From the IMG/VR virus record IMGVR_UViG_2872147552_000001: a stretch of DNA of 64,000 nt; one strand, 5' to 3'. Every line of letters starts with the position of its first letter. The stretch's first letter is position 1. The notes beneath the pieces were generated by a model, which did not search any database, was not told where the DNA came from, and saw nothing but the letters and a program-made list of their open reading frames with translations. Position numbers and translations under genes: made by a program. Of this stretch, positions 2,894 to 28,077 are shown in pieces. The DNA comes from a virus (taxonomy: Duplodnaviria; Heunggongvirae; Uroviricota; Caudoviricetes).

Positions 2894-2909
2894 TAAAGGA
2901 GCTTTAAAA

Positions 2910-3113: not shown

Positions 3114-3134
3114 TTTTTTTTAAGGAGCTTTATC

Positions 3135-3365
3135 ATGTTTGTTCTTATCGCTGGCGTTAACGTGCGCAATGAATATTTTGTTAATCGCATCGCTGGGATC
3201 GCTGGTTACGCTGGGCGCTCAGTCGAGTTTATCGATGAAACAACGCGTAAAATTGATTTATTGAGCGACCAGGAGCGAAAAAAAGCAGACGTGAACGACG
3301 CTGATATATTTTTAATGTTAAAAGCGTTTGTAGAAATGGGATTTAAAATCAGTTTACACAAATAA
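3135..3365 (+). CDS. hypothetical protein (76 aa)
   Basis: Same aaggagcttta RBS context as the previous gene. Confidence 0.45.
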   Translation: MFVLIAGVNVRNEYFVNRIAGIAGYAGRSVEFIDETTRKIDLLSDQERKKADVNDADIFLMLKAFVEMGFKISLHK

Positions 3366-3370
3366 AATCG

Positions 3371-3395
3371 AGCGCCCATAGTGGGCGCTTTTTTC
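3371..3395 (+). terminator. rho-independent terminator
   Basis: agcgcccatagtgggcgct hairpin followed by TTTTTT. Confidence 0.6.
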
Positions 3396-3415
3396 GTTTC
3401 CAATACTCCCACCAT

Positions 3416-3446
3416 AGCGCGCCATCATTGGCGCGTTTTTTATTGT
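3416..3446 (+). terminator. second tandem terminator
   Basis: agcgcgccatcattggcgcg hairpin followed by TTTTTT. Confidence 0.55.
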
Positions 3447-3854
3447 CTTTAACTCACTCCAACAACATAAAAATAAGCGCCAAAATAACGCCATAGACGC
3501 GCTTTTATATCCTTACCAGTACATACCCATTACTTAGCACATTAACGCGCTTAAAATGCGTTATATTGCGCTATAACGTATGGCTAATCATTGGCTTTTA
3601 TTCTTGCTATGTGATCCGCGTTTATTTGTCGGCGCGGATCGGCATTTTGTGTTGTTCTGTATCCGCTCGCGTATTATGTGCGCGTGATTTTTCACATAAT
3701 CACACCACTTAATCACGTATGTGATTACGCTACGAAAGAAATCTGGATGTCTCAGGCGACGAAAGTCATCATAATTTTCCCCGCTCGCCTGTCCGACAAC
3801 CGCTGGTTGGATTCCACCAGCTTCCCGATGTTTTTTTCTACATAAAGGCGAATG

Positions 3855-3970
3855 CAGCCGTTTCCCGAAAAAATCCTGGCCGTTTCCCGTCGGCTCATGA
3901 ATACGTTCCTCGCCGTTTCTGAAAATTTCCCTGCGGCAGCTGGTGGCTATAGAGAAAGGGCCGTTTCTGG
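3855..3970. repeat. cluster of four GCCGTTTC(C/T) direct repeats
   Basis: cagccgtttcccgaa, ggccgtttcccgt, cgccgtttctgaaaa, ggccgtttctgg within 115 bp. Confidence 0.6.
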
Positions 3971-9429: not shown

Positions 9430-9729
9430 TTACCAGTTCCAGCACTCAAGCCCTTCAACGACCGGTGCACCACAATCAAAATGTACAGAGTCAAAGCCTA
9501 CATCAAGTACTTTCTGAATGTTAGCAATCGCGCCTTCGGATATACCATATCGACGCAAGTCCTCTTTCCAGACATCATCCTGTAACCCGGCGTGGACAAT
9601 ACAACCGCCGTCAATTTGCGAAACCCAATCCAGCTCATTGCTTGCGATCATGAATCGGCGAGCATCTTCCTCTGATGTATGAGATGAACTGATCAATGCC
9701 ACCTGGTAGGCTTGGGTAATGTTCAACAT
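9430..9729 (-). CDS. hypothetical protein (99 aa)
   Basis: ATG with GGAG RBS; class A motif in leader. Confidence 0.45.
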   Translation of the reverse strand: MLNITQAYQVALISSSHTSEEDARRFMIASNELDWVSQIDGGCIVHAGLQDDVWKEDLRRYGISEGAIANIQKVLDVGFDSVHFDCGAPVVEGLECWNW

Positions 9730-9741
9730 TTCAACCACTCC

Positions 9742-9756
9742 GAAACAATTTGTTTT
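9742..9756 (-). promoter_or_regulatory. class A palindromic leader motif
   Basis: gaaacaatttgtttt. Confidence 0.45.
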
Positions 9757-9790
9757 CTTATGTGGTTTATTATCTCCATCAACAAAAGGC

Positions 9791-9890: not shown

Positions 9891-11924
9891 TTACTTAACC
9901 TGGTGGCCAGGTTTAGCACCAGCATCCGGGCTTAACAGGAAGATATCTTTCCCGCCGGGGCCAGCAGCCATCACCATGCCTTCAGAGATACCGAAGCGCA
10001 TTTTACGTGGTGCCAGGTTAGCCACCATAATGGTGTGACGACCAATCAGTGCCTGTGGATCTGGATAAGCGGAACGGATGCCTGAGAAGACATTACGCTT
10101 TTCACCACCGAGATCCAGCGTCAGGCGAAGCAGTTTGTCAGAACCTTCTACAAACTCTGCGTTTTCAATCAGCGCCACGCGCAGGTCAACTTTGGCGAAG
10201 TCGTCAAAGGTGATAGTTTCCTGAATCGGGTCGTCAGCCAGTGGGCCAGTTACCGGTGCGGCTGTGGCTTTCACTTCTTCTTTGGATGCTTCCACCAGTG
10301 CTTCAACCTGCTTCATATCGATGCGGTTATACAGTGCCTTGAACGGATTTACTTTATGGCCCAGCAGCGGTTGCTGGATACCATCCCAGGTCAGTTCTGT
10401 ATTCAGGAATGCTTCTGCACGTTCAGTCAGTTTCGGCAGTACCGGCTTCAGGTACGTCATCAGCACGCGGAACAGGTTAATGCCCATAGAGCAAATCGCC
10501 TGCAGATCGGCATCGCGACCTTCCTGCTTCGCCACCACCCACGGAGCCTGTTCATCGACATAGCGGTTAGCCAGGTCAGCCAATGCCATGATTTCACGGA
10601 TAGCTTTACCAAATTCGCGGCTTTCCCATGCTTCGCCAATCACTTCAGCGGCATCAGTAAAGGTTTTGTACAGTTGCGGGTCAGCCAGTTCGCTTGCCAG
10701 CACGCCGTCAAAACGCTTGTTTATAAAGCCTGCATTACGGGAGGCCAGGTTAACCACTTTGTTCACGATATCGGCATTCACGCGCTGAACGAAATCCTCC
10801 AGGTTGAGATCGATATCATCAATGCGCGAAGAGAGTTTCGCAGTGTAGTAGTAACGCAGGCTGTCGGCGTCAAAATGATTCAGCCAGGTGCTGGCTTTAA
10901 TAAAGGTGCCGCGAGACTTGGACATCTTCGCGCCGTTCACCGTCACATAGCCGTGAACAAACAGGTTGGTCGGCTTGCGGAAGTTGCTGCCTTCCAGCAT
11001 GGCAGGCCAGAACAGGCTGTGGAAGTAAACAATATCTTTACCGATGAAGTGGTACAGCTCGGCGGTGGAGTCTTTCTTCCAGTATTCATCGAAGCTGGTG
11101 GTATCGCCGCGCTTGTCGCACAGATTCTTGAAGGAACCCATGTAGCCAATCGGCGCGTCCAGCCAGACGTAGAAATATTTGCCCGGCGCGTCCGGAATTT
11201 CAAAACCGAAGTAAGGCGCATCGCGGGAGATATCCCACTGTTGCAGGCCGGATTCAAACCATTCCTGCATTTTGTTCGCCACCTGCTCCTGCAACGCGCC
11301 GCTGCGGGTCCATGCCTGCAACATTTCGCTGAAAGAAGGCAGATCAAAGAAGAAGTGTTCGGAATCACGCATTACCGGGGTAGCGCCAGAAACCACCGAT
11401 TTCGGCTCGATCAATTCAGTCGGGCTATATGTTGCGCCGCAGACTTCACAGTTATCGCCGTATTGATCTGGCGCTTTACATTTCGGGCAGGTGCCTTTTA
11501 CAAAACGATCCGGCAGGAACATGCCTTTTTCCGGGTCGTACAACTGAGAGATAGTGCGGTTTTTAATAAAACCGTTCTCTTTCAGGCGAGTATAGATAAG
11601 CTCAGACAACTGACGGTTCTCTTCGCTGTGCGTCGAGTGATAGTTGTCATAGCTGATGTTAAAGCCTGCGAAATCAGTCTGGTGTTCCTGACTCATTTCG
11701 CCAATCATCTGCTCCGGTGTGATACCAAGCTGCTGCGCTTTCAGCATGATCGGCGTACCGTGGGCATCGTCGGCACAGATGAAATTAACCTCGTGGCCGC
11801 GCATTCGCTGGTAACGAACCCAGACATCAGCCTGGATGTGCTCCAGCATATGGCCGAGGTGGATTGAGCCGTTAGCGTACGGCAGCGCGCACGTCACCAG
11901 AATTTTCTTCGCGACTTGGGTCAT
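9891..11924 (-). CDS. metG: methionyl-tRNA synthetase
   Basis: 677 aa from [26 protein letters not shown] (HIGH motif) with KMSKS and C-terminal tRNA-binding domain; very close to enterobacterial MetG from memory. Confidence 0.9.
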
Positions 11925-12081
11925 AGTAGGCATTACTTCTTTGTAGTGAAAAGGGGCTTGATAGTAACAAAATGGCCTTATGTCTGCCATGTGATAACAG
12001 CATTTCTCATAAATGATTAAATGTCGTAGCTGGAGTACACTACAAGGCGACAATTGCGCAAATTAAAATAAAGGAGACGGG

Positions 12082-15135: not shown

Positions 15136-15515
15136 TTATCTCTCTCAGTATGTTGCGATGGCGTAAATTTGACGACATCAAATATTTTGGATGGCATCAA
15201 CTTTATCCGCGAGCTTAGTTCGGCTCTTCTCTGTAATGCGGTTAATAATGTTTTCGTTCTGACGCCTTCGTGTATCCTCATCCCTGGCACAAGAACTACA
15301 TCGCAGGGGAGATGCTCAGGTGACAAATCATTTTGGGCATCGCTAATCAGTCGTGTAATCTCTCTTTCAAGCCGACCGCCTAGCTCTGTTTTAGTGCAAT
15401 GTTCTGACCAATCACCAGCCTCAAGCAGCGCGAGAATGCTTAAAATATCGTCCAATAGATCAGTGGTATTATCGACTTCCTTCTGAAGCTCACCGGCTAC
15501 TGATTTATGCATCAT
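15132..15515 (-). CDS. hypothetical protein (127 aa)
   Basis: Start/stop overlap with neighbours. Confidence 0.45.
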   Translation of the reverse strand: MMHKSVAGELQKEVDNTTDLLDDILSILALLEAGDWSEHCTKTELGGRLEREITRLISDAQNDLSPEHLPCDVVLVPGMRIHEGVRTKTLLTALQRRAELSSRIKLMPSKIFDVVKFTPSQHTERDK

Positions 15516-16165
15516 TCGTCATCCTCATCCGAGTCATCCTCATCACAGGATGAGAGTAGTGGGTTAGTCATTCGCCCTACTTGAGTGGCGTAGCCACGCC
15601 GACAGAGATTGCGCAGCACACTGTATATTTCGAACATCTCGGTTCGTTCATCGCCAACATCAAGCTCAGATGCTATAGCGTGGCATTCAGTCGCGAGAGC
15701 CGATATTTTCTGAAATAACTCTGCATTATTCACTGTTCGACTCCTGCGGCGTTCTGGTAGTGACATCCAGTGTGTGACATTGCTAATCAGACCATATTCA
15801 TTAGTTTGAGGATGGTTGCCGTTAGCGTCTCCGTATTTAAGACTCTCCATAAAGCCATAATGCCTATCACCATTAACGCTCACAAAGCCGTAATAAGCAG
15901 GTATAACGCCGATCTCACACGTAACCAGTAAAGGAAAACTAGTTCTCCAATTTAGCTCGCCAATTACAGGCATTCGCTCACTACAGCTTATCCAACCATC
16001 CTTAGATGCGGCTGTATTGGCATAGGCCTTACGGTGCTTCTGTAACTCTGCTGCAATCGCTCTCACGACTTCAACTGGTGCCCTTGCAGCAAACTCAATG
16101 TTGGTGATCAGCTCATTAAGATATTTCTCGCTTGGGTAGCATTTCTTATTGTTAACGGTGGTCAT
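15512..16165 (-). CDS. hypothetical protein, DUF551-like phage protein
   Basis: WISCSERMP...THWMSLP pattern; acidic C-terminal tail. Confidence 0.45.
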   Translation of the reverse strand: MTTVNNKKCYPSEKYLNELITNIEFAARAPVEVVRAIAAELQKHRKAYANTAASKDGWISCSERMPVIGELNWRTSFPLLVTCEIGVIPAYYGFVSVNGDRHYGFMESLKYGDANGNHPQTNEYGLISNVTHWMSLPERRRSRTVNNAELFQKISALATECHAIASELDVGDERTEMFEIYSVLRNLCRRGYATQVGRMTNPLLSSCDEDDSDEDDE

Positions 16166-16350
16166 TAGGCAGCTCTCTCAACAACAAGCAATTCGTCGTA
16201 GTCATAATCAGTTTCGGAACCATCCGTACCGAACAGAGTCACTTTGTCATTTTCCATCCAAAAAGATTTAACCGCACATTGTTGACCTTTAGATGTTATG
16301 AGCACATCACCAGGGATTACGTCTTCAGCGCGAACCTCTAGTGTTCTCAT
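16165..16350 (-). CDS. hypothetical protein (61 aa)
   Basis: Tightly packed between neighbours. Confidence 0.35.
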   Translation of the reverse strand: MRTLEVRAEDVIPGDVLITSKGQQCAVKSFWMENDKVTLFGTDGSETDYDYDELLVVERAA

Positions 16351-16769
16351 CGTGCTGCCCCCTCTTTGGTGAAAATGCCTGCTGCAATGCTGTTTATGAT
16401 GCTGTCAGTGCATGGAGTAGAAAGCTGGGCATCTCCAGCAATTTTCATGACCTCAACATCCGCATATCGAATACCGAGGTGTATCAGACCGGCTATACCT
16501 GACTTAAGTCGAACATTTTCCATAAACAGATCCTTTTCCCGCTGTTTAACGGTCTCCAGCTCAACACGCAACTTCTCAATTTCGGCAGCCATGTAGTAAC
16601 CAACCATAGCGAAAGTGGCGAAAGGGTAGTCCGAATCATCAGGAGATACGGAGGCCATTAGCAGACCATCGTGCATGTTCTGGCTTCCATCAGTGATAGA
16701 TACCGCATAAGAATCGCTGGTTTCCCGCTTATACAATACGACGACCGGGTTCTTGATTTTCTCTCTCAT
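16347..16769 (-). CDS. hypothetical protein (140 aa)
   Basis: 4-nt overlap with flanking genes. Confidence 0.45.
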   Translation of the reverse strand: MREKIKNPVVVLYKRETSDSYAVSITDGSQNMHDGLLMASVSPDDSDYPFATFAMVGYYMAAEIEKLRVELETVKQREKDLFMENVRLKSGIAGLIHLGIRYADVEVMKIAGDAQLSTPCTDSIINSIAAGIFTKEGAAR

Positions 16770-17311
16770 TACGATGCCTCTAACTTGTCTAACTCTTTCA
16801 GCCCTTCACGTACCGCGTTCACAATGCGTTCCAGATACTGGTATTTCGGGTTTGGTACCGTTGGCCAGTCGGCATACCACGGATCATCACCAAAGAGATT
16901 CAGTAGTTTGTTACCGACGCCGAAACAGCAGCAGCTTTCTTTTACGTCATCGGCGTTTTCCGCCTCGTCCCACATTTCGCGAGCCAGTACGGCGTCTATT
17001 TCTCTCTCTCTTCGTAACTTTATGATTTCTGACTTCACGAAAAGCAGATTTGCATCGTTGTCATCGTCGACCGTGCTTCGCAGTTGAGGGTCGAAATAGC
17101 CGATTAGATACTCGTTGCTGACCCGCTTAATGAACGTCTGCACATCATCACCGCCCATAGCAAACCAAGCCGCAGTCCACGCTTTTCCGTAGCAGGTGAT
17201 GGTGATTCTTCCCTTACCAGGTTCGTAGTTTTCAATCATCACTCGAACCGGATCGAGGCGTTCCAGATCCGTCAGCACAAAGGAAAGAACATCTATTTTT
17301 TCGATCTTCAT
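16769..17311 (-). CDS. hypothetical protein
   Basis: ATG overlaps the stop of the HD-domain gene (ATGA coupling). Confidence 0.45.
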   Translation of the reverse strand: MKIEKIDVLSFVLTDLERLDPVRVMIENYEPGKGRITITCYGKAWTAAWFAMGGDDVQTFIKRVSNEYLIGYFDPQLRSTVDDDNDANLLFVKSEIIKLRREREIDAVLAREMWDEAENADDVKESCCCFGVGNKLLNLFGDDPWYADWPTVPNPKYQYLERIVNAVREGLKELDKLEAS

Positions 17312-17949
17312 GCAGCCTCCCACGCGCTCCAGATCAGCGATTTGTGTTTTTCATAACGTTTGATGTGTACCGGTTTCAGAAGCGCAATACCTTCAGTGAC
17401 TTTCGCCATTGCGCTTAATAACAACGGGTGTTCTATACCTATCCTCTCCATGTACTCGACAACATCAGCGTTGGCACCAATCTCCTTCCCGTTAAAAAGT
17501 ACGTCCAGCATCAGCTCTTTCTCTGCAAGGTAGATAGCTGAAAACTCAGGATCGCGACTCACGATAGAAGAGGTATTGTCGAGCAGGTCAGCCAGCTTGA
17601 TCATGCGCGTCTGCATGTCGAGATTTTGCTCCAGCTCCCGGACATTGATGATGAAACGCTGTATTCGATTGCCGTCTTCTGGCCTTGCAATGTTGGTCAG
17701 AGCCTGAACCATTTCAGCTACGCGCTCACCGAAGTGATCACGAACCATCTCTATGGTTACATGGGTGTCTTCGACCACATCATGCAGAAGCGCCGCGATT
17801 TGCATCTCCACGGTTCCGTCATGCAATGCAACAATCTCTCGGACAGCAACCGGGTGGTTGATGTAGTCTTCGCCGGTATATTTTCTTTTCTGACCAACGC
17901 CACCATGAGCGCCAGCGGCGAACATATGAGCTTCGGAAATACTAGACAT
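17308..17949 (-). CDS. HD-domain phosphohydrolase, RelA/SpoT-type (p)ppGpp hydrolase-like
   Basis: HPVAVREIVALH ... AALLHDVVEDT (His...HD motif) as in the SpoT/Mesh1 hydrolase domain; no synthetase domain. Confidence 0.55.
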   Translation of the reverse strand: MSSISEAHMFAAGAHGGVGQKRKYTGEDYINHPVAVREIVALHDGTVEMQIAALLHDVVEDTHVTIEMVRDHFGERVAEMVQALTNIARPEDGNRIQRFIINVRELEQNLDMQTRMIKLADLLDNTSSIVSRDPEFSAIYLAEKELMLDVLFNGKEIGANADVVEYMERIGIEHPLLLSAMAKVTEGIALLKPVHIKRYEKHKSLIWSAWEAA

Positions 17950-18002
17950 TCTTAACTCCGTTGTTTTCTAGTTGTGGTTATTTTCACAAATAAGAAAAGG
18001 TA

Positions 18003-18017
18003 GAAAACAATTTATTT
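18003..18017 (-). promoter_or_regulatory. class A palindromic motif
   Basis: gaaaacaatttattt in the leader of the HD-domain gene. Confidence 0.45.
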
Positions 18018-18038
18018 AAGGCCACAACTTATGGCCTT
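18018..18038 (-). terminator. conserved GGCCAC hairpin
   Basis: aaggccacaacttatggcctt after the gene ending at 18069. Confidence 0.45.
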
Positions 18039-18068
18039 TATTTATTCATGCCGAAGGATTTGTAGCGT

Positions 18069-18449
18069 CTAATTGCCGGATAAAATGGGGTGAGGTGCTT
18101 GCCAGTAGGCTCCACCGGTCCATGTGAACCCCATGCGAATAAGAGTGTTTATTGCGGCTTTGGTAGACTCCGATTCGACACTGGCTTTTCGAAACTCTTG
18201 AACCTCTTTCGCCAACTTGTATGTAATTGTGCAGGGGACGATTGCAGCCCAGCCTTTCTCATGACTGTTAATGACCATCTGGATGTGACCATCCAGAATA
18301 GGTTGATTAGGCATGTTATTGAAAATGTCTGCCTGTTTTTGAATGTGAAGAAAAAGCCTTGCCAGCTCCATTTGCTCACTACGAGACAAGGGATTATCAA
18401 GAGGGCTTTTTGCAAAAGCGGCTATACGCTGTGCGTCAATGCCAAACAT
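18069..18449 (-). CDS. hypothetical protein (126 aa)
   Basis: ORF; start overlaps the upstream gene stop. Confidence 0.45.
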   Translation of the reverse strand: MFGIDAQRIAAFAKSPLDNPLSRSEQMELARLFLHIQKQADIFNNMPNQPILDGHIQMVINSHEKGWAAIVPCTITYKLAKEVQEFRKASVESESTKAAINTLIRMGFTWTGGAYWQAPHPILSGN

Positions 18450-19153
18450 CAGCGCACCTCACCATCTTTATGGCTGGAGTTAACTTCCGCCATTAAATGT
18501 CTGACGTAATCGACAAGAGAGCCGCCTGGTGGAATCTGGCATTCCTCAACTAACTGGAAGTAGATATCCGCTGCATTACGTGTATTGCTACCCGCGCATA
18601 TTCTTTCTTCCCGAAGTGCATGAAGCTCGTTGATCAAACGGTCACACTCTCCGTTACGCTGATCCACAACGGCCTCAAGCTCTGCGACGCGTTCACCTGG
18701 CGTCTTACCTTCTTTGCGTTGGATGGTAACGACGAAATCGCCAATTGCAGGGACGTTGTAATCCAGCTCAAGGTAGTTTTTGGCACCGCTGCGGACGAAC
18801 TCACCCGCGAACATGGTGGCGAACATCGCAGAGGCCACTTCGCCGTTGAAAAGTGACTCCAGATCTAACGGAGTCCCGGCATCAAGAGCCTCTTTTGCTG
18901 TATCCATTGCATCCATGAACCGATCAAACTCATTGGCGCGCTTTTCCAGGTTTTTCCATTGCTCGCTCCAACGTTTGGCAACGAAGTCTATGAATGTTTT
19001 CGCGGATTCATCAAAATTCCCCTCAAACTTAACGATGCCTTTATCAATAATGATCTGGCCTACCGCATCCTCTGCATAACCTTTCAATGTAAACTTGAAA
19101 GGAAAATCGGAATGGCCTGTGACGTTAAAATGCTCTAACTGGAGGTTGCTCAT
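18449..19153 (-). CDS. hypothetical protein (234 aa)
   Basis: ORF; class B palindrome upstream. Confidence 0.5.
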   Translation of the reverse strand: MSNLQLEHFNVTGHSDFPFKFTLKGYAEDAVGQIIIDKGIVKFEGNFDESAKTFIDFVAKRWSEQWKNLEKRANEFDRFMDAMDTAKEALDAGTPLDLESLFNGEVASAMFATMFAGEFVRSGAKNYLELDYNVPAIGDFVVTIQRKEGKTPGERVAELEAVVDQRNGECDRLINELHALREERICAGSNTRNAADIYFQLVEECQIPPGGSLVDYVRHLMAEVNSSHKDGEVR

Positions 19154-19192
19154 GTGTTTTCTCTTATCGTTTAGTTACTACATTCTTACATA

Positions 19193-19215
19193 AACTAAGT
19201 AAGTATTTACCTATC
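19193..19215 (-). promoter_or_regulatory. class B palindrome
   Basis: ctaagtaagtatttacctatc. Confidence 0.4.
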
Positions 19216-20899
19216 ATTTAACGCGTTTGAAAACGTATACGCTGACTGTGATCCCTGTGTCTTCAAACTCGTTGGTAAACGACTTCCCTCTGGCATAAAC
19301 GTAATTATCCATCGTCATCCAGTCCAGTATTGGCGCAGTGCCCGGCAATACTGCTACAAGACGCCCGCCGACTTTCAGATGCCCCAGCGCAGCCAGCGTG
19401 TGCTCTCTATGACGACCAAGCGAGTACGGCGGGTTCATAACGATTTTGTCGAACTGATAACCTACGTTGTCCTCAGACCACTTTATGAAGTCGCAGCAAA
19501 TCGTGTTCGTATACCCTTTTCCGCGCAGGATATCAGCGAAGAGAGGTGCGATTTCTATGCAGGTAACATCTTCCAGATCGGCGTTAATATAGGCCAGAAG
19601 ATCCCCACGTCCGGCTTGAGGCTCCAGCAGCTTCTCACCAGGCTTCAATTCAGTGGCTCTGGCAACGTACTCAGCAATCAAGCGTGGGGTAGGGTAGAAC
19701 TGGTGTGATTTTGTATCCGGTATTAAACCGGTAGCCACAATCGTATTTAGCGTATGGACGATGTCATACGGGAACTGCCAGTGCTTTTTCTCCTGCACGC
19801 CGCCAATGAAGCTCAGTGTGCGCTCAAGCTCTTCCACCTGCGACTTCTGGAGAGCTGAATCAGAGAAGTACCATACGCCTTTGTCTTTGCTCAATCGCCC
19901 GTCACGAAGCGCAGTGCGAACCGGCACGGAGATCGTCTTCTGGATTAACCCGAACTGCTTTGGTGCCCGTGTTTTTGGCGCGGTGCGACATGGCGCGGGG
20001 ATTGCAGCAGGCATACTGTAAGCCAGCACCTCATTCAACTTCCAGGCCACGTCAGGATGTATTTCAAAGTGAACGTTGCCGTTCTTGAACATCTTCACGC
20101 GCATCAGATTTCCATCGACGTTCATCCAGTCACCGGTCTGGCAGTCGTTTGCCCGATACGCAGCTGATAGCACCTCAGCAGTGCGGTTGATGGTAATAAA
20201 TTCTTTGTGCGCGAAGAAATGAAGCAAGACACGCAGATCGTCGATGTAGTCCTCTTTGCGATAGTTCACGCTAACGCTGTCCCGCCAGAAATCAGAAATG
20301 CAGTCAGCGATTATCAGCCGCTCGCTGAAACCGTTTGTCTTATTTGTCTTGTGCGCAGGACTCAGCGCCTTAAACAAGCCATACACGCGCTCAGAGAGAT
20401 ATTTGTGCCTGTCATTCAGCAAATTAAGCATCGTGGGTATGACCGTTTCTGCTTTGAACTCCGGTACACCAACGAACTCTTTAACCTTCATCTGGTAGCC
20501 GGTTCTGTCAGTTTTGATGACTTCCTGTTTGCCCTCTATAAACTGCTCGCGCCACTCATCTCGACGGGAAGCTGGCATGATCAGCAAAACGTTAGTCATG
20601 TCCGTGACCTTCCTCCAGTACTCGGCCCAAATATTCTGTTTCACCCATTCCAGATCGACTTTATCCAACCAACCTCGATTTAAACGCGAGCGATCTTCAT
20701 CTGGTCGATGGTTTAGTCTCAGCAGGCGATTAATCATGTTGTGGCGTTCGTCGCCATAAACGAAGTCGTGTACCTGATACATGAAGGCGATCTCTTTCTC
20801 GCACTCGGCCACAATTTCGTGGATGACGTTCATTTCCTGCCGATAGTCGATAGCAGTGTTTGAGTTGGCATCGTCGATGATGGAAAGGGCTGTATTCAT
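19214..20899 (-). CDS. DNA N6-adenine methyltransferase with large N-terminal domain of unknown function
   Basis: C-terminal third has FYPTP, EPQAGRGDLL (SAM-binding) and NPPY catalytic motif; about 380 aa N-terminal with no recognised motif. Confidence 0.65.
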   Translation of the reverse strand: MNTALSIIDDANSNTAIDYRQEMNVIHEIVAECEKEIAFMYQVHDFVYGDERHNMINRLLRLNHRPDEDRSRLNRGWLDKVDLEWVKQNIWAEYWRKVTDMTNVLLIMPASRRDEWREQFIEGKQEVIKTDRTGYQMKVKEFVGVPEFKAETVIPTMLNLLNDRHKYLSERVYGLFKALSPAHKTNKTNGFSERLIIADCISDFWRDSVSVNYRKEDYIDDLRVLLHFFAHKEFITINRTAEVLSAAYRANDCQTGDWMNVDGNLMRVKMFKNGNVHFEIHPDVAWKLNEVLAYSMPAAIPAPCRTAPKTRAPKQFGLIQKTISVPVRTALRDGRLSKDKGVWYFSDSALQKSQVEELERTLSFIGGVQEKKHWQFPYDIVHTLNTIVATGLIPDTKSHQFYPTPRLIAEYVARATELKPGEKLLEPQAGRGDLLAYINADLEDVTCIEIAPLFADILRGKGYTNTICCDFIKWSEDNVGYQFDKIVMNPPYSLGRHREHTLAALGHLKVGGRLVAVLPGTAPILDWMTMDNYVYARGKSFTNEFEDTGITVSVYVFKRVK

Positions 20900-21002
20900 A
20901 ATTGCACCATTAAGAAGTGATTTGTTTAATGGTGCAATTATTTCAAAAATGAAAAGGTACTAAATAGAAATAAACAGGCAATCCTTCAAATAAAGGCATT
21001 GG

Positions 21003-21614
21003 CTAATCATACTTGGAGGTATTTATCACCAGAATTTTGTTTGTATAAATCTTCTTAATATCCCATGTGACATTACCGGAATACCATTGACCGTTATATA
21101 CTTGGTTTCCAGTTGCACCTGTCATTGTTACATAGACAGGTCTGTCGTAATCGGTTCGTCTATAGTTATATACTCCAACCATAGCAGGCATTACCGCACA
21201 TGGATACCCCATATCTATTGTAAATTGAGGGTCAGAAATAGTGATAAGTTTCGCATCAAGGGGCATCATCTCACCGTGATACACCATTGCGCCTGCGCTG
21301 TTATACATGGCAATGCCATAGCCAGAATGTGGTAACACCATATCAGAAAAAGCATAAACTGTTATTGTTCCGGGGCTACCATTTACCTGATGCAATCTGA
21401 GAGCATTGTATCCGTTACTATGCTCATGAATAAACATCATGTTCGCCTTATTACTGCTTTTTATGAAGAAAAAGCATGATTTGTTTGATGGGATTGATGT
21501 TTGAAAAACAGAACCTTTAGATGTAGACATTGTCCCTTTATTAATCAGATTTTGCGGAGTAAATTCTGGACTCATCCACAAACTTCCATCTGATTGAGTA
21601 ATTGACATCCCGAA
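21003..21614 (-). CDS. hypothetical protein, AT-rich island
   Basis: Tyr/Gly/Asn-rich; hydrophobic N-terminus; low GC. Confidence 0.35.
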   Translation of the reverse strand, partial: FGMSITQSDGSLWMSPEFTPQNLINKGTMSTSKGSVFQTSIPSNKSCFFFIKSSNKANMMFIHEHSNGYNALRLHQVNGSPGTITVYAFSDMVLPHSGYGIAMYNSAGAMVYHGEMMPLDAKLITISDPQFTIDMGYPCAVMPAMVGVYNYRRTDYDRPVYVTMTGATGNQVYNGQWYSGNVTWDIKKIYTNKILVINTSKYD

Positions 21615-21619
21615 CATAA

Positions 21620-21901
21620 TTATCCCCAGTATGTGTATATGTAAGAACCAAGCCCCGTATATAAATTTGACCAACTAACCGTATTTCCATTAATAGTAAC
21701 TGTTGGAACAGGTAAATTAATGTAGTTGTCGTTGTTAAGAGGCATCAATGACCACACGGCATGTAGCGATTTACCCGGTGGCGGATTGGAGTACGTCTTA
21801 GAGCCTGATGACGCAGTAAATCGATCAAGAAAAAAAATAGGAGTAAGGAAGCCAGTAACGTTAATTCCTTTATTGTTGTAAATCCCTGTACCGTATGCCA
21901 T
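21620..21901 (-). CDS. hypothetical protein, AT-rich island (possibly upstream part of a frameshifted gene)
   Basis: Good RBS; overlaps the next ORF in a different frame. Confidence 0.35.
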   Translation of the reverse strand: MAYGTGIYNNKGINVTGFLTPIFFLDRFTASSGSKTYSNPPPGKSLHAVWSLMPLNNDNYINLPVPTVTINGNTVSWSNLYTGLGSYIYTYWG

Positions 21902-21956
21902 TTTTCATCCTTGTTTTTTATCAACACAATATGGCCGATCATGCGGCCATATCAGA

Positions 21957-22526
21957 TCAATTAGAGCTTTGAAAGGCTTTGTGTGGCTGTGTTGCGAGGT
22001 TATGTCGATGGCTTAACTCACGCATCATGTCTTCAAGCCGACTCTTTGTGTCGTCGAGTTGGTCGGCCATTGCTCCCAAAAGCTGACGAACGGCCATCGG
22101 ATCATCGCTGTTTAGTGATGGCATTTTATAACCCGCCTGAGAAGACATAAGATTGAACGCAGACATCAACATCGTTAGAGAGGATTTAAGCCCAGCAATT
22201 TCACGATCTTTGCTGGCAATAATCGCCTCACTCTTGTTAGTGTCATCAGTTCGTTGAGTCTCGCTCACCATATCCAAAGTCGCCTGCAACTTATCAGCGC
22301 GCTCTTTTTCAGCAAGATAATGAACACCGAAATGATGTGCTAAAGCTACAACCTGAGTTGGCTCTTCAAAGGTGGACTCAAAATTAAGTGCTGTAACCAC
22401 TCTCTCAAATATGGAAACGTCTTCTATTCCTCGAAGAATGGCTAACATTTTGACCAGTTCATTAGCATCCATTTCTTCGAATAAGGCGTTTTGTTCATCA
22501 GCTATCGCTTTGCATTTCTTGCACAT
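21957..22526 (-). CDS. hypothetical protein (189 aa)
   Basis: ORF; class A motif in leader. Confidence 0.5.
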   Translation of the reverse strand: MCKKCKAIADEQNALFEEMDANELVKMLAILRGIEDVSIFERVVTALNFESTFEEPTQVVALAHHFGVHYLAEKERADKLQATLDMVSETQRTDDTNKSEAIIASKDREIAGLKSSLTMLMSAFNLMSSQAGYKMPSLNSDDPMAVRQLLGAMADQLDDTKSRLEDMMRELSHRHNLATQPHKAFQSSN

Positions 22527-22544
22527 GTGTTTTTCCTAATGCTT

Positions 22545-22558
22545 AAACAAGTTGTTTT
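22545..22558 (-). promoter_or_regulatory. class A palindromic leader motif
   Basis: aaacaagttgtttt about 20 nt upstream of the ATG. Confidence 0.45.
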
Positions 22559-22640
22559 CTTATTGGCTTTATTGTGATGTGGCATAAAAGGGGAGCAAGC
22601 TAAACGTAAAGGTGCAAACTCTCTATTTCGGTCAACGAAA

Positions 22641-22664
22641 CACAAGGGCCATTTGGCCCTTGTC
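22641..22664 (-). terminator. terminator hairpin
   Basis: cacaagggccatttggcccttgtg right after the small ORF stop. Confidence 0.5.
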
Positions 22665-22665
22665 A

Positions 22666-22824
22666 TTAACACGTTGCTTTACGGACTAGCGGATAAGCGA
22701 AGTAGATCGCCAGACCAATGAGGACGCCATCAGAAATGACAGACATCATCTTTCCCGTAAAATCCACCAACACCGCCATCACCAGAAGAGCAATGACGGT
22801 CACAAGCCGGAATCTCTCAAGCAT
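22666..22824 (-). CDS. small two-TM membrane protein (52 aa), not in ORF track
   Basis: ATG overlaps the TAA of the TerB-like gene (TAATG); MLERFRLVTVIALLVMAVLVDFTGKMMSVISDGVLIGLAIYFAYPLVRKATC. Confidence 0.4.
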   Translation of the reverse strand: MLERFRLVTVIALLVMAVLVDFTGKMMSVISDGVLIGLAIYFAYPLVRKATC

Positions 22825-23249
22825 TAGAGATAAGCATCCAGTGACAACTGAAGCGCCTGTGCGATCTTTTTCAGTGCCAGCTCTTCTTGTTCGCCAATAC
22901 CGTCTTGGTCGGCAATATCAAGGCACAGACACAGTACATCTACTGCATCATTAGTCCCGGCCACATCAGCCAGCTCACGTAAAGCCTGGGCATTAGCGCG
23001 GCGCGGTGAGGCTTCGTATTGAGCACGGATATTGGCGCTCATTTGGGCAATCTCACCAGCAAACGGAGAAAACGCAGGCAGAGCTGCAATTGTTTTCTCA
23101 AGAATGGAAATTTCCTTTGCGTCGCATGTGCCATCGGCATAGGAGATCATGTACGCGCCCCACACGGTGGCTTCAACCGCATCACGGTTCTCCATTTTTT
23201 TGACTTCAATAACAGCTTTACGAGTTTTCTTTTTGAATAAACCTAACAT
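22824..23249 (-). CDS. TerB-like (tellurite-resistance TerB domain) protein
   Basis: Two helical repeats with D-G/D-x-D-x-x-E pattern (DGTCDAKEISILEK, DQDGIGEQEELALKK); AAGGAAA RBS. Confidence 0.5.
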   Translation of the reverse strand: MLGLFKKKTRKAVIEVKKMENRDAVEATVWGAYMISYADGTCDAKEISILEKTIAALPAFSPFAGEIAQMSANIRAQYEASPRRANAQALRELADVAGTNDAVDVLCLCLDIADQDGIGEQEELALKKIAQALQLSLDAYL

Positions 23250-23272
23250 GTGTTTTCCTTTTATTATTTGTC

Positions 23273-23287
23273 AAAACAAGTTGTTTT
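23273..23287 (-). promoter_or_regulatory. class A palindromic leader motif
   Basis: aaaacaagttgtttt. Confidence 0.45.
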
Positions 23288-23341
23288 CTAGTTTCATAAA
23301 TGCTTGCGCAAAGATGGTCAATGCATATGCACTAACAACCG

Positions 23342-23530
23342 TCAGAAATAACCAAGTACCGAACCAACTGGAAAAACAAAAATCCCAACTACACGAGCCA
23401 AGGTCATGCCAGCCTGAAACTGGAGATCACCAGAGCAAACAAGTTTTATAATGTTCGATACCCAACCGGCGGCCATGAGGGCCAGAATTGCCAGCCAAAT
23501 TTTTCCAAAGTGATTTGAAAACCAGTTCAT
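23342..23530 (-). CDS. small membrane protein (62 aa)
   Basis: Two hydrophobic helices; ATGA start/stop overlap with the upstream ORF. Confidence 0.4.
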   Translation of the reverse strand: MNWFSNHFGKIWLAILALMAAGWVSNIIKLVCSGDLQFQAGMTLARVVGIFVFPVGSVLGYF

Positions 23531-23778
23531 ACAACCGCCTTAGTCACAACATGATCCTGAGTAACTGGATGAACTTGAGGTATCGCATCCACCGTCATCC
23601 CATCCAGAGTGACAGGACGCTCTACTGGAGTGGTGGTAATTGTCGTCGACGGAGGTGTGGTGATGGATGAACCCGGCATCAAAAGGCTCTGGCCGGCTGG
23701 AACGGCTATCGTCGCCAGTGAAACTATAATGAGAACGTAGGCCATTGGTTTCAGCCTCTTTCTTTGAAAATTTTCCAT
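23527..23778 (-). CDS. small secreted or membrane-anchored Thr/Pro-rich protein
   Basis: Hydrophobic MAYVLIIVSLATIAVPA then TTPPSTTITTTP; coupled to downstream gene. Confidence 0.35.
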   Translation of the reverse strand: MENFQRKRLKPMAYVLIIVSLATIAVPAGQSLLMPGSSITTPPSTTITTTPVERPVTLDGMTVDAIPQVHPVTQDHVVTKAVV

Positions 23779-24034
23779 TCGAACTGTCCTTGTTGTTTTT
23801 CTCCTTCACTAAAGGCCGTGCATTTTTCGCTTGGTGTGAAGAACCAGAGGTAACAATCGCCCCCACGTTCGCAACAACTGACGCTTGCTTATCTAAACGT
23901 TCATTCAGCAACCGAACGGTAGTCTCCAGTTCATCAAGACGTGACAGAACACGACCGCTAAATAATTCGGCCAAAATTTGACGTAGTGAACGAGGACGTT
24001 TAGTTGCAGAAGTGAAATAGGTTTGACGTGCCAT
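23540..24034 (-). CDS. hypothetical protein (N-terminal part plausible, C-terminal part overlaps 23527-23778 in another frame)
   Basis: N-terminal about 85 aa look protein-like; C-terminal part low-complexity Ser-rich. Confidence 0.3.
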   Translation of the reverse strand: MARQTYFTSATKRPRSLRQILAELFSGRVLSRLDELETTVRLLNERLDKQASVVANVGAIVTSGSSHQAKNARPLVKEKNNKDSSNGKFSKKEAETNGLRSHYSFTGDDSRSSRPEPFDAGFIHHHTSVDDNYHHSSRASCHSGWDDGGCDTSSSSSYSGSCCD

Positions 24035-24163
24035 GTGGACTCCATCCAGTGTCAGAAAGAGTTGCGGCTGGCGATTGCCAGCCGCCTTTCTCGTTCCATC
24101 CTGGAACTGTGTCTTACCGACACATTGTCATCCTGACGCTGATAAGATACATGATTTAAAATG

Positions 24164-24183
24164 ATAGGTAAACACTTACTTAC
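24164..24183 (-). promoter_or_regulatory. class B palindrome
   Basis: ataggtaaacacttacttac. Confidence 0.35.
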
Positions 24184-24773
24184 TGCTTGTTGTAAACAAA
24201 ACCAATATCTTTCTTGTGAGGCATATCTGCTGCGGAAAAAGCTGCGATCTTCGCGAGTCGATCACATATTTCATTTTCACGATGCCCGGCGTGACCTTTA
24301 ACCCACTTCCAGCGAACATTATGTCGACTTGCAGCCTCATCCAGACGCTTCCACAGATCAACATTCTTTACCGGTTTTTTGTCAGAAGTCACCCATCCAT
24401 TGCGTTTCCACCATTTCATCCACTGTGTCATGCCGTTTTTCAGATACTGGCTATCAGAGTACAAAATAACGTTGCATGGATATTTCAAACGCTCCAGCCC
24501 GATAAGTGCGCCCATCATCTCCATGCGGTTATTGGTGGTGCTATGAAAACCATCTGAGAACTCGCGTTCCTCACCACGATACTGGAGAACGATACCGTAA
24601 CCACCCGGGCCACCCGGATTTTTAAGGCAAGAGCCATCACTAAAGATTTTCACGGTTTTGAGCTGGGGATTGAACTCTACGACAGGCGTTGTGGGATTGG
24701 TGCGGGGAGAATTTTTGTTTTTGGCTTTTTTGCGAGTTTTTGCTTGCGATCGGGCTGGTGTCTTCGTCGTCAT
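24180..24773 (-). CDS. rnhA: ribonuclease HI
   Basis: IFSDGSC...[27 protein letters not shown] motifs; basic N-terminal extension; AGGAG RBS. Confidence 0.8.
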
Positions 24774-24849
24774 ATAAACTCCTGAATCAAGCGCCGCGCC
24801 GATTTTTTCCTCGCGCGTGCGCACACGCGTGCGTGTTAATAATTATTAA

Positions 24850-25350
24850 AATAAACAAATTACTTCCCAGAACAGGTTTTTATAAACCTGAACTGAACGA
24901 ACGAAGTGAGTGAAGTTCACCTCGAACGAAGTGAGAGGTTGTCTTTTCAGGTAATACTCTCCCAGGGAGGTGAGTATAAAAATCCCTCACCAACCTGGTC
25001 GTTTCATAACCTGAAAAGTTATGGCCTAAGTCTACTGCCAGCTTAGACTTGGGAAGTTATGGATGACAGCACCCCAGAACCGAGATCTTCCCACACTTTA
25101 TGAAGGGGAGTACTGGATTCAACCTCTCGAAACACCCCAGACTCGACAATCATAAAGTGACCCTTGTCTCCGCTCACTTTGGTTCCCCCTTCCCCGACAC
25201 CTAAACGGCACCGGTTCTACGCTGGTAGTGAGCTTTTTTTAAACCTGACGCCAGTGACGCTTACCCCCACCCATCAGGTCGAGTCTCCAGTCTACGACTG
25301 GAAACTAGCAGATCTTAGCACTTACAATTCACTTTATGAATAGTTTGTAC
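24850..25350. other. about 500-bp noncoding region with dense dyad symmetry (candidate structured RNA or origin)
   Basis: No ORF on either strand; multiple stems such as aagtctactgccagcttagactt and repeated gaacgaagtgag. Confidence 0.35.
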
Positions 25351-25357
25351 TTATCTA

Positions 25358-25588
25358 TCATTTCGATTGATTATTTTCTCGACCATGTAGTTGAACATTC
25401 AAGGCAAACACCTCATTGATCAACTCACCTAAAAGCTGTTCAACAAGTTCGCGATGCTCGCCAAGATGCAAGCACTTAATTGCCCATTCGTACAAGTTGA
25501 AAGCCTGCTCGCGATCTTTCATCATTTCACGGGCCTGGGCCAGAAAATCGCTCTCTACGAGCGCAACGACATTAGTCGGGTATGACAT
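25358..25588 (-). CDS. hypothetical protein
   Basis: ATG start (MSYPTNV...). Confidence 0.4.
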   Translation of the reverse strand: MSYPTNVVALVESDFLAQAREMMKDREQAFNLYEWAIKCLHLGEHRELVEQLLGELINEVFALNVQLHGRENNQSK

Positions 25589-25693
25589 GTTGGTTTCCTT
25601 AAAGTGGTTCATAAAATCGATTTTAAAGCGTCTGGGAAGGGGTTCTAGTGGATTCTGTAGTGGTGTTCAGGTCTGGGAGTCTCTGATATAAAA

Positions 25694-25753
25694 CAGCCTG
25701 CTTCCGTATATTAATAATTAATATGTAGTTATTTATATATACAGAAGCAGGCT
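25694..25753 (-). terminator. long-stem hairpin terminator
   Basis: cagcctgcttc ... gaagcaggct with AT-rich loop downstream of the methyltransferase gene. Confidence 0.5.
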
Positions 25754-25774
25754 AATTACAGACGCCAGAACAAA

Positions 25775-26368
25775 CTAAGCAGCCTTCTTTGATGGTCTTT
25801 TTTTCCTGATCACATTCGCAGGATCATACCCTCCCAGACTTTTCATGACATCCAAAGGGATCTTGCTTATAGAGTGCCCAGCGTCCTGACAGAATCCTCG
25901 AAAAACAACGAGCATACTGCCACCGGGGTTGATGTTTACTTCTACCTGACCCAGATTGACGTCAGGCTCGACAAACGCTACGCGGCCACCAGACAGAATA
26001 ATCGTCTCATTCGCACACTCTGTTGCACGCTCATACCACTTTGTATCGAGGGATTGAGGAATTAGCATCACTGTTGTAACTCCGCGAGCCTGCTCACGTA
26101 TAGCCGCATCAATCCAGGGGGAGATTTTGGAGTAGGGTGGATTGAGGAAGGCAATTGTACCTGGCTGCCCCCATTCAGATTTCAAAGCATCACGCTCAAC
26201 GCCTATGAAATTAGGCAGCTTCGCATTATCCTTGTTGCAGGCAACGTCAACATCAAATGTCACTCCAAGATAACGTTGAATGGCAGAAAACAGCCAGTCA
26301 GGTGTTCTCCAGAGGTCACGAAGAGAGTTGTCGCGCTTTCGCTGTTTGATTTTTTCGGCTGCAATCAT
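25775..26368 (-). CDS. DNA N6-adenine methyltransferase (phage Dam-like family)
   Basis: WRTPDWLF and NPPYS motifs. Confidence 0.7.
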   Translation of the reverse strand: MIAAEKIKQRKRDNSLRDLWRTPDWLFSAIQRYLGVTFDVDVACNKDNAKLPNFIGVERDALKSEWGQPGTIAFLNPPYSKISPWIDAAIREQARGVTTVMLIPQSLDTKWYERATECANETIILSGGRVAFVEPDVNLGQVEVNINPGGSMLVVFRGFCQDAGHSISKIPLDVMKSLGGYDPANVIRKKRPSKKAA

Positions 26369-27519: not shown

Positions 27520-28077
27520 TTACACAATTTCAGAGGGTAATTTAAAAAATCCGTACTTATTACGTGCCTTAAAGAAGCATTGCATCATTAAGTTTGTGTC
27601 ATATAAGGCACTATGTGCTTTGGCATGATCGTATATAAAGCCAAGAGAGAAGGCCAACTCTTCAAGGCGGGGACGTTTACCGTCTTCTGTGGCCCACAAT
27701 CCCGATAACATAGTATCTATAACAGGAACTTCTGGCAGTCTTACTCCATACCCTGAAAACTCGTGTCGAATAAATGGTATATCAAATGCTTCGCCGTTAT
27801 GAGCAACCCACACACTACATGCCCCCATATAAGCGCCAATTTCGCTGGCATGATTTGACAACAAAGGTTCAGCTGCGAGCTGTTCCAATGAAATGCCATG
27901 AACGGCTTGAGCTTTCGGATCTATGTTTCTGCGAGGGTTAAAACGCATCTCCAGACTATCAATATGTCTCTGTGTCTCCAGTTCATAGCGGGTAATTGCG
28001 ATTTCAATAATTTTATGACCAGCAAGGAAATCCAGTCCCGTAGACTCGATATCGATGCCTGCAACAATCGTTGTCAT
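27520..28077 (-). CDS. DnaQ-like 3'-5' exonuclease (DEDDh)
   Basis: Exo I GIDIESTG, Exo II HNGEAFD, Exo III YDHAKAHSALYD. Confidence 0.75.
   Translation of the reverse strand: MTTIVAGIDIESTGLDFLAGHKIIEIAITRYELETQRHIDSLEMRFNPRRNIDPKAQAVHGISLEQLAAEPLLSNHASEIGAYMGACSVWVAHNGEAFDIPFIRHEFSGYGVRLPEVPVIDTMLSGLWATEDGKRPRLEELAFSLGFIYDHAKAHSALYDTNLMMQCFFKARNKYGFFKLPSEIV

What the first reader, a model, noticed from the sequence alone, without database searches (positions are those of the whole stretch)
19214..20899. Adenine methyltransferase fused to a 380-aa N-terminal domain of unknown function
Only the C-terminal third carries methyltransferase motifs (FYPTP, EPQAGRG, NPPY). The large N-terminal portion has no motif recognisable by eye and might be a target-recognition, sensor or second enzymatic domain. 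No restriction endonuclease partner is adjacent, so it looks like an orphan protective methylase, possibly with an unusual specificity.
Basis: partly seen in the sequence, partly recalled or inferred. Interest (0 to 1): 0.5.

Follow-up and report, generated by a model that had tools for sequence, protein, structure and literature searches.

The report
Phage-plasmid orphan adenine methylase, DUF4942 family
This is a real but already catalogued gene of SSU5-like phage-plasmids: a lone DNA adenine methylase, probably protecting the element's DNA from host restriction, whose conserved N-terminal domain (Pfam DUF4942) remains untested and has no known structural relative.

Summary
The window is an E. 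coli SSU5-like phage-plasmid. The gene is the ortholog of SSU5_095 and Cyrano CYRAN_90, and is 99.5% identical to genes in many public plasmids.

Residues 396-561 form a minimal gamma-class N6-adenine methyltransferase core with no C-terminal target-recognition domain. Its nearest sequence relatives are IncF YdcA and the methylase module of DarB-like giant virion proteins. It is unrelated to M.EcoGIX.

Residues 1-395 are not an odd add-on. They contain Pfam DUF4942 and form a fixed architecture with this core in hundreds of protein clusters from phages, plasmids and proteobacterial prophages.

- DUF4942 is the most constrained part of the protein (dN/dS 0.037) and is basic.
- No nuclease partner is found here or in 43 diverse related loci. 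Neighbours are phage early genes and other orphan methylases.

Best reading: a solitary anti-restriction DNA methylase in which DUF4942 supplies DNA binding. Substrate, specificity and the domain's role are inferred, not shown. It is ordinary as a kind, with a modestly interesting uncharacterised domain.

The parts
19214..20899 (-). Whole gene, 561 aa plus stop. Ortholog of SSU5_095 and Cyrano CYRAN_90; PHROG 6263; annotated 'DUF4942 domain-containing protein'.
20654..20899 (-). aa 1-82: disordered tip plus a long helical hairpin. Acidic (pI 5.1) and the most variable part across the family. Often survives as a 70-130 aa gene fragment in other plasmids.
19964..20653 (-). aa 83-312: DUF4942 core, with invariant W95 W116 T156 L179 S180 H183 T185 N186 I196 W258 D262 H277 N289 L292 and conserved arginines R112 R113 R164 R171 R223 R305. 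Basic (family median pI 9.1); dN/dS 0.037.
19715..19963 (-). aa 313-395: linker plus a small alpha/beta domain containing the conserved IGG motif and F376/Y378. It travels with the methylase core in PHROG 9133 (match aa 328-560).
19217..19714 (-). aa 396-561: minimal class-I SAM methyltransferase core of the gamma-class N6-adenine type. It ends 72 aa after motif IV, so there is no C-terminal target-recognition domain.
19685..19699 (-). Motif X, FYPTP (aa 401-405), the 'TP' helix cap typical of EcoKI/TaqI-like adenine methylases.
   Evidence: PMC5512222
19604..19624 (-). Motif I, EPQAGRG (aa 426-432), the SAM-binding loop.
19424..19435 (-). Motif IV, NPPY (aa 489-492), the catalytic adenine-N6 motif.
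20898..20941 (-). Perfect 16-bp hairpin or palindrome that covers the only Shine-Dalgarno-like GGUG and the first two bases of the start codon. It may control translation or act as an operator.

Best explanation
The gene encodes a solitary (orphan) N6-adenine DNA methyltransferase of an SSU5-like phage-plasmid. The C-terminal 166 residues are a stripped-down gamma-class catalytic core that binds SAM and flips and methylates adenine, but has no target-recognition domain of its own. The N-terminal 395 residues (DUF4942 core plus a small alpha/beta domain) are the family-specific module that most likely holds the DNA and presents it to the core, standing in for the missing recognition domain. The gene lies in the early replication block of the element. 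The enzyme would methylate the element's own DNA as it replicates, so plasmid copies and packaged genomes resist restriction enzymes in the current and next host. Shown: the motifs, the fold, the fixed two-part architecture, purifying selection on both parts, the lack of a nuclease partner, and the mobile-element context. Inferred: that the substrate is DNA, that the role is anti-restriction, and that DUF4942 binds DNA.
For: Catalytic core:
- Motif order X-I-IV.
- Aligns to M.TaqI through the TP and NPPY motifs.
- PADLOC hits to Type II methylases and mad2.
- 33% identity to IncF YdcA and 34% to the methylase module of a DarB-like antirestriction protein.
- Motifs conserved in 236 of 243 family members.

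Fixed architecture:
- The N-domain alone finds 613 clusters at 50% identity. Nearly all of the 150 best, the only ones listed, are 500-580 aa.
- Full-length homologs occur in IncHI2 plasmids (31% identity) and in Pseudomonas phages.

N-domain:
- dN/dS 0.037 against 0.098 for the core.
- Basic across the family, while the other parts are acidic.
- Six conserved arginines.

Orphan status:
- Window neighbours show no nuclease.
- No conserved neighbour in 43 diverse loci.
- Their neighbours are phage early genes and other orphan methylases.

Context and precedent:
- The window carries Pol III alpha, RNR, RecA and a second Dam-like methylase on the same strand.
- Mobile-element orphan methylases that protect against restriction are documented for M.EcoGIX (PMC4288162 and PMC7736820).
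Against: - No member of this family was found to be characterised. A full-text search for 'DUF4942' returned only four incidental mentions.
- Specificity domains normally vary, yet here the N-domain is the most conserved part. That fits a fixed or non-sequence-specific function, or a role other than recognition.
- A 360-aa standalone form that ends exactly before the methylase exists with no methylase gene beside it. The N-domain may therefore work on its own.
- In 64 of the 251 E. coli genomes with a match, the match covers less than 80% of the gene, and truncated or frameshifted protein copies occur. Selection may therefore be weak or episodic.
Confidence: 0.6

Rival explanations
1. It is a regulatory (epigenetic) methylase. 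It marks specific sites on the phage-plasmid or host DNA to time replication, partition or the lysis-lysogeny switch, as Dam and CcrM do, rather than to block restriction.
For: It is orphan. The highly conserved N-domain suggests one fixed target across the family. The gene lies among replication genes. The ribosome-binding site is sequestered in a strong hairpin, which implies controlled expression.
Against: It sits beside other orphan methylases in several prophages and in this window, a pattern more typical of anti-restriction sets. In 64 of 251 E. coli genomes the match covers less than 80% of the gene, which argues against an essential regulatory role.
Confidence: 0.15
2. It is an RNA adenine methylase acting on rRNA, tRNA or mRNA, with the N-domain as an RNA- or ribosome-binding module.
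Against: The significant sequence relatives are DNA methylases: PADLOC Type II methylase E 4e-10 and mad2 1e-15, and DarB-like and phage 'DNA methyltransferase' PHROGs. The TP plus NPPY combination is the EcoKI/TaqI signature. All RNA-methylase sequence hits fall far below their cut-offs.
Confidence: 0.1
3. It is a DarB-like protein that is packaged in the virion and injected with the DNA, methylating or shielding it in cis immediately on entry.
For: The methylase core is most like that of giant virion or 'polyvalent' proteins (PHROG hits to 1,259-3,925-position profiles; Parlo gp81 and H66 or Epa33 structural proteins).
Against: It lacks the SNF2 helicase and the other polyvalent domains. The gene lies in the early replication block, not among structural genes. 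Homologs also sit on conjugative IncHI2 plasmids, which have no virion.
Confidence: 0.07
4. The N-domain is a second enzyme such as a nuclease, making the protein a single-chain restriction-modification enzyme of the Type IIG/IIL kind, or else a sensor domain.
For: Invariant polar residues (S180, H183, T185, N186, D262, H277) could form an active site. A standalone N-domain form exists.
Confidence: 0.05

Closest known systems
SSU5_095 (Salmonella phage SSU5) and CYRAN_90 (Escherichia phage Cyrano); PHROG 6263; PGAP 'DUF4942 domain-containing protein'
   Same: Orthologs with the same length, position and gene order: 89.8% and 98.5% nucleotide identity. The PHROG match is full length, E 5.5e-299.
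   Different: Nothing substantive differs. No experimental study of the family turned up in the held literature.
YdcA, the 187-aa 'putative adenine-specific DNA methylase' of IncF plasmid leading regions
   Same: The closest stand-alone relative of the catalytic core: 33% identity over aa 400-517 with the same TP, motif I and NPPF/Y layout. It is also on a mobile element among anti-defence genes.
   Different: YdcA has no N-terminal domain. Its upstream neighbour ydbA is DUF3560, not DUF4942. No mention of YdcA was found in the two papers checked for it.
Methylase module of DarB-like 'polyvalent' virion proteins (phage P1 DarB type; Serratia phage Parlo gp81)
   Same: A gamma-class EcoKI/TaqI-like core with the TP cap and NPP(Y/F): 34% identity over 122 aa, plus PHROG hits. 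The role ascribed to that module is anti-restriction (PMC5512222).
   Different: No SNF2 helicase and no giant multidomain context. The region before the core is DUF4942 plus a small domain rather than LPD36, and similarity starts only at the TP motif.
M.TaqI, M.BseCI and CamA (solved gamma-class Type II or orphan adenine methylases)
   Different: In M.TaqI the catalytic motifs lie at the start of the chain (residues 22-110 of 421), leaving room for a recognition domain after the core; that it is one, and that M.BseCI and CamA are built the same way, is from my own knowledge. Here nothing follows the core, and a large unrelated domain precedes it.
M.EcoGIX / M.BceJIII (plasmid leading-region, single-strand-specific, promiscuous m6A methylases)
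   Same: A functional analogy only: an orphan adenine methylase on a mobile element that protects incoming DNA from restriction (PMC4288162 and PMC7736820).
   Different: Not homologous. The IncF homolog of M.EcoGIX that was compared (227 aa) belongs to Pfam PF01555, which I take to be the beta class, and shows no similarity (E 1.6). M.EcoGIX sits on conjugative plasmids, whereas this gene is on a non-mobilizable phage-plasmid.

Membership tests
Gamma-class (EcoKI/TaqI-like) N6-adenine DNA methyltransferases | Linear motif order X (TP-capped helix), then I (SAM loop), then IV (NPPY/F) | tested here: met
   FYPTP aa 401-405, EPQAGRG aa 426-432, NPPY aa 489-492; conserved across the family; aligned to M.TaqI.
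Gamma-class (EcoKI/TaqI-like) N6-adenine DNA methyltransferases | Class-I Rossmann methyltransferase fold superposable on solved members | tested here: met
Gamma-class (EcoKI/TaqI-like) N6-adenine DNA methyltransferases | Target-recognition domain C-terminal to the catalytic core | tested here: not met
   The protein ends 72 aa after motif IV (family median 72). The extra 395 aa are N-terminal.
Gamma-class (EcoKI/TaqI-like) N6-adenine DNA methyltransferases | Pfam N6_Mtase (PF02384) score above the gathering cut-off | tested here: not met
   13.4 bits against a cut-off of 20.4.
Gamma-class (EcoKI/TaqI-like) N6-adenine DNA methyltransferases | Demonstrated SAM-dependent m6A formation in DNA | not testable with these tools
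   Requires a methylome or an enzyme assay.
Pfam DUF4942 (PF13708) / PHROG 6263 | Profile match above the curated threshold | tested here: met
   DUF4942 at 74.5 bits against a cut-off of 25. PHROG 6263 matches aa 1-561 to profile positions 1-548, E 5.5e-299.
Pfam DUF4942 (PF13708) / PHROG 6263 | N-domain followed by the minimal methylase core in one ~510-580 aa chain | tested here: met
   Nearly all of the 150 best N-domain hits have this length. Alignments A2 and A3 confirm the layout.
M.EcoGIX / M.BceJIII single-strand-specific plasmid methylases | Sequence homology to M.EcoGIX (PF01555 family) | tested here: not met
   BLASTP E 1.6 to the IncF M.EcoGIX homolog, which is PF01555.
M.EcoGIX / M.BceJIII single-strand-specific plasmid methylases | Location in the leading region of a conjugative plasmid | tested here: not met
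   The host replicons are ~110-kb plasmids typed non-mobilizable (543 of 556) and identical in sequence to SSU5-like phages.
DarB-like polyvalent methylase-helicase proteins | Related gamma-class methylase core | tested here: met
   34% identity over 122 aa to Parlo gp81; PHROG hits to giant-protein profiles.
DarB-like polyvalent methylase-helicase proteins | C-terminal SNF2 or SF2 helicase fused to the methylase | tested here: not met
   The protein ends with the methylase core, and there is no helicase hit.
DarB-like polyvalent methylase-helicase proteins | N-terminal LPD36 four-helix domain with a GxGU motif | tested here: inconclusive
   The region before the core is alpha/beta with a conserved IGG(V) motif, not a clear GxGU. 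Similarity to Parlo gp81 starts only at the TP motif. No LPD36 profile was available.
Type II restriction-modification system | Cognate restriction endonuclease gene next to the methylase | tested here: not met
   No nuclease in Pfam or PADLOC scans of the window neighbours. No conserved neighbour in 43 loci. No endonuclease family among the 25 commonest Pfam families of their 142 neighbours.
Type IIG/IIL single-chain restriction-modification enzymes | N-terminal nuclease domain and a recognition domain after the methylase | tested here: not met
MADS defence system (mad2 methylase) | Full-length match to mad2 together with the other mad genes | tested here: not met
   Only aa 394-523 match mad2 profile positions 265-401 of 492. 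None of the ten neighbouring ORFs scanned (15512-26368) hits a mad model.

The most novel reading that the evidence does not exclude
DUF4942 could be a new kind of nucleic-acid-handling module that gives a minimal adenine methylase a non-canonical target. Examples would be near sequence-independent methylation, or methylation of a DNA structure such as replication forks or single strands. That would provide broad-spectrum anti-restriction for phage-plasmids, prophages and IncHI2 plasmids. The extreme conservation of the domain, unlike variable specificity domains, and its lack of any solved relative are compatible with this reading.
Probability: 0.2. Interest if true: 0.55.

Novelty: new member of a known kind. 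Interest (0 to 1): 0.3.

Why it matters
SSU5-like phage-plasmids are common in clinical Enterobacteriaceae, and phage-plasmids in general have been reported to carry antibiotic-resistance genes (PMC9600943). This gene is found in 251 of 5,426 complete E. coli genomes. A methylase that lets these elements cross restriction barriers would affect their host range. The DUF4942 domain is widespread, strongly conserved, confidently modelled and has no structural relative. Working out what it does would close a small, well-defined gap in methyltransferase biology. Nothing here overturns current understanding, because orphan methylases on phages and plasmids are expected.

Tried and rejected
1. Homology to M.EcoGIX. 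I first suspected it from memory. The IncF homolog of M.EcoGIX belongs to PF01555 and is unrelated.
2. A split ydbA + ydcA pair in IncF plasmids as the unfused version of this protein. Rejected, because ydbA is DUF3560.
3. An N-terminal 62-aa match annotated 'restriction endonuclease subunit M' in a Klebsiella plasmid. It is only a 71-aa remnant of this gene beside an unrelated Type I system.
5. A nuclease or defence partner among the neighbours. None was found.
6. Promoter and terminator scan of 18900..21300. Matches were no more frequent than in shuffled sequence and none lies upstream of the gene.
7. Other copies of the upstream palindrome elsewhere in the window. None beyond chance.
8. Literature on DUF4942, on pHCM2 or SSU5 methylases, and on phage-plasmid methylomes. 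No characterisation was found.

Full report
**Observation.** The window has an ORF at 19214..20899 on the minus strand, 561 aa long with an ATG start. The finding is real and the coordinates are exact.

**Where it comes from.**
- The gene is 99.3-99.5% identical in DNA to genes on many ~105-113 kb E. coli plasmids.
- It is 98.5% identical to Escherichia phage Cyrano (CYRAN_90, 'DUF4942 domain-containing protein').
- It is 89.8% identical to Salmonella phage SSU5 (SSU5_095, 'DNA methyltransferase').
- In all, 556 plasmid records match, from Escherichia, Klebsiella, Enterobacter, Salmonella, Citrobacter and Cronobacter. Of these, 543 are typed non-mobilizable.
- Among complete E. coli genomes, 251 of 5,426 carry it, almost always on a plasmid. 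In 64 of them the match covers less than 80% of the gene.

The window is therefore an SSU5-like phage-plasmid. The gene lies in a long same-strand block that also holds:
- an HD-domain protein, RNase H, a TerB-like protein and a second Dam-family methylase;
- an epsilon-like exonuclease, a ribonucleotide reductase, an SbcC-like ATPase, an intein-containing RecA and a Pol III alpha subunit.

**Catalytic part (aa 396-561).**
- Sequence searches against curated families give only sub-threshold hits to N6_Mtase, RrnaAD and MTS and to KsgA/Erm models.
- PADLOC gives significant hits to the mad2 methylase (E 1e-15) and to Type II methylases (4e-10) over aa 394-523.
- The best PDB sequence hit is M.TaqI (E 0.13), with the alignment running through both the TP and NPPY motifs.
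- A full-length AlphaFold2 model is confident (mean pLDDT 82.5).
- The motif order X-I-IV marks it as gamma class.
- The chain ends 72 residues after NPPY, so there is no C-terminal target-recognition domain.
- The catalytic motifs are conserved across the family (NPPY or NPPF in 236 of 243 full-length members). The enzyme is therefore probably active.

**Nearest relatives of the core.**
- I first suspected the plasmid methylase M.EcoGIX (PMC7736820, PMC4288162). The comparison rules it out. The IncF homolog that was compared is a 227-aa PF01555 enzyme with no similarity to this protein.
- The closest stand-alone relative is the untested 187-aa YdcA of IncF leading regions, at 33% identity over aa 400-517.
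- The core also resembles the methylase module of giant virion proteins. These include PHROG profiles of 1,259-3,925 positions, the 'DarB-like antirestriction' protein of Serratia phage Parlo at 34% over 122 aa, and structural proteins of Pseudomonas phages.
- Iyer et al. describe this module as EcoKI/TaqI-like, with an N-terminal TP motif and NPP(Y/F), and link it to anti-restriction (PMC5512222).
- This protein lacks the helicase fused to such modules. Its similarity to Parlo gp81 begins only at the TP motif.

**N-terminal part (aa 1-395).**
- Pfam assigns DUF4942 (E 1.2e-20).
- A search with aa 1-395 alone against 1.84 billion cluster representatives found 613 hits, 158 of them below 1e-30. 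Nearly all of the best 150 are 500-580 aa, with the match at the N-terminus.
- Full-length homologs at about 31-40% identity occur on IncHI2 conjugative plasmids and in Pseudomonas phages phiPSA1 and Touem01.
- A scan of one genome per species found 243 relatives. The 80 best kept are mostly from beta-, gamma- and alpha-proteobacteria.
- This is therefore the fixed architecture of a widespread family, not an unusual fusion.
- A model of the N-terminal part alone is confident (pLDDT 86.4, pTM 0.78). It shows a helical hairpin (aa 1-82), a mixed alpha/beta core (aa 83-312) and a small alpha/beta domain (aa 313-395).
- The fourteen invariant residues include S180, H183, T185, N186, D262, H277 and N289. 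Six arginines are conserved.
- Against the SSU5 ortholog, the DUF4942 core is the most constrained segment (dN/dS 0.037). The methylase core is at 0.098, aa 1-82 at 0.156 and aa 313-395 at 0.188.
- It is also the only basic segment across the family, with a median pI of 9.1.
- These properties fit a nucleic-acid-binding module. They do not fit a variable specificity domain.
- A 360-aa standalone form ends exactly before the methylase and has no methylase gene beside it. Truncated and frameshifted copies are common.

**Partner genes.**
- Pfam and PADLOC scans of the window neighbours find no nuclease.
- In 43 diverse related loci, the largest cluster of homologous neighbours covers only 5 loci.
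- The commonest Pfam families among 142 neighbours are other DNA methylases (C5 in 5, N6_N4 in 2, Eco57I-type in 1) and phage early functions. The latter include the Q antiterminator, SSB, RdgC, Gp157, antirepressors and a RecA-dependent nuclease. No restriction endonuclease family is among the 25 commonest families listed.
- The enzyme is orphan throughout its family, and most of the identifiable neighbours are phage-type early genes.

**Mechanism.**
- The best-supported reading (confidence about 0.6) is a solitary DNA adenine methylase that pre-methylates the element's DNA to blunt host restriction. DUF4942 plus the small domain would supply the DNA binding that the minimal core lacks.
- Established: the motifs, the fold, the architecture, the selective constraint, orphan status and context.
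- Inferred: DNA as substrate, the protective role and the function of the N-domain.
- Rivals: an epigenetic regulator (0.15), an RNA methylase (0.1), a packaged DarB-like protein (0.07), and a second enzyme or nuclease in the N-domain (0.05).

**Novelty.** The sequence and its annotation are already public. The kind, an orphan methylase on a phage or plasmid, is well known. The open points are the specificity and the role of DUF4942. A full-text search found no study of either. I rate it a new member of a known kind, with interest 0.3.

**Side observation.** A perfect 16-bp hairpin (-20.6 kcal/mol, z = -6.4) covers the Shine-Dalgarno-like GGUG and the start codon of the gene. It is identical in phage Cyrano and only partly kept in SSU5. 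It is unique in the window.

Noticed in passing
window 20898-20941 (minus strand): A perfect 16-bp hairpin or palindrome (AUAAUUGCACCAUUAA, 12-nt loop, UUAAUGGUGCAAUUAU) buries the only SD-like GGUG and the first two bases of the methylase start codon. Free energy is -20.6 kcal/mol, z = -6.4 against shuffles. It is identical in phage Cyrano. In SSU5 only the 3' arm and a CACCA/UGGUG core are kept. No other copy is present in the window.
   Followed up: partly
window 25775-26368 (minus strand): A second orphan adenine methylase of 197 aa, Pfam Dam family PF05869 (E 2.5e-38), also matching PADLOC orphan-methylase models. The element therefore carries at least two lone methylases about 5 kb apart on the same strand.
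   Followed up: partly
window 9891-12053 (minus strand): A full-length methionyl-tRNA synthetase (catalytic, anticodon-binding and C-terminal tRNA-binding domains; E 4.6e-166) is encoded on the phage-plasmid. It is annotated the same way in phage Cyrano.
   Followed up: partly
window 46421-48760 (minus strand): A RecA-like protein of 779 aa is interrupted by an intein with a LAGLIDADG homing-endonuclease domain (Pfam RecA, Intein_splicing, LAGLIDADG_3).
   Followed up: no
window 52745-56251, 33564-35879, 37265-39181, 27520-28077 (all minus strand): The element carries its own replication and nucleotide-metabolism set: a Pol III alpha (DnaE-type) subunit, a class I ribonucleotide reductase large subunit with an ATP cone, an SbcC/SMC-like ATPase, and an epsilon-like 3'-5' exonuclease.
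   Followed up: no
window 17308-17949, 22824-23249, 24180-24824 (minus strand): An HD_4-domain phosphohydrolase, a TerB-like protein (called TciA-like in Cyrano) and an RNase H with a ~55-aa basic N-terminal extension lie near the methylase.
   Followed up: no
L010 4001-5083 (JGI metagenome contig); proteins P0284 and P0286: A 360-aa standalone DUF4942 protein ends exactly at the boundary before the methylase core, with no methylase gene next to it. One such cluster has 65 member sequences, which hints that the N-domain may also work alone.
   Followed up: partly
L003 4506-6477 (IncF plasmid pB8FEP-TC-CTX): In the IncF leading region, the minimal methylase gene ydcA is immediately preceded by ydbA, a 453-aa DUF3560 protein. 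This could be an analogous two-gene arrangement of accessory domain plus minimal methylase. They are unrelated in sequence to DUF4942.
   Followed up: partly
L002 about 9700-9760 (SSU5, upstream of SSU5_095): SSU5 has a GC-rich terminator-like hairpin (GGGGGCGAAAGCCCCC followed by a T run) just upstream of its ortholog. The window and Cyrano lack it, so the transcriptional unit differs between relatives.
   Followed up: no
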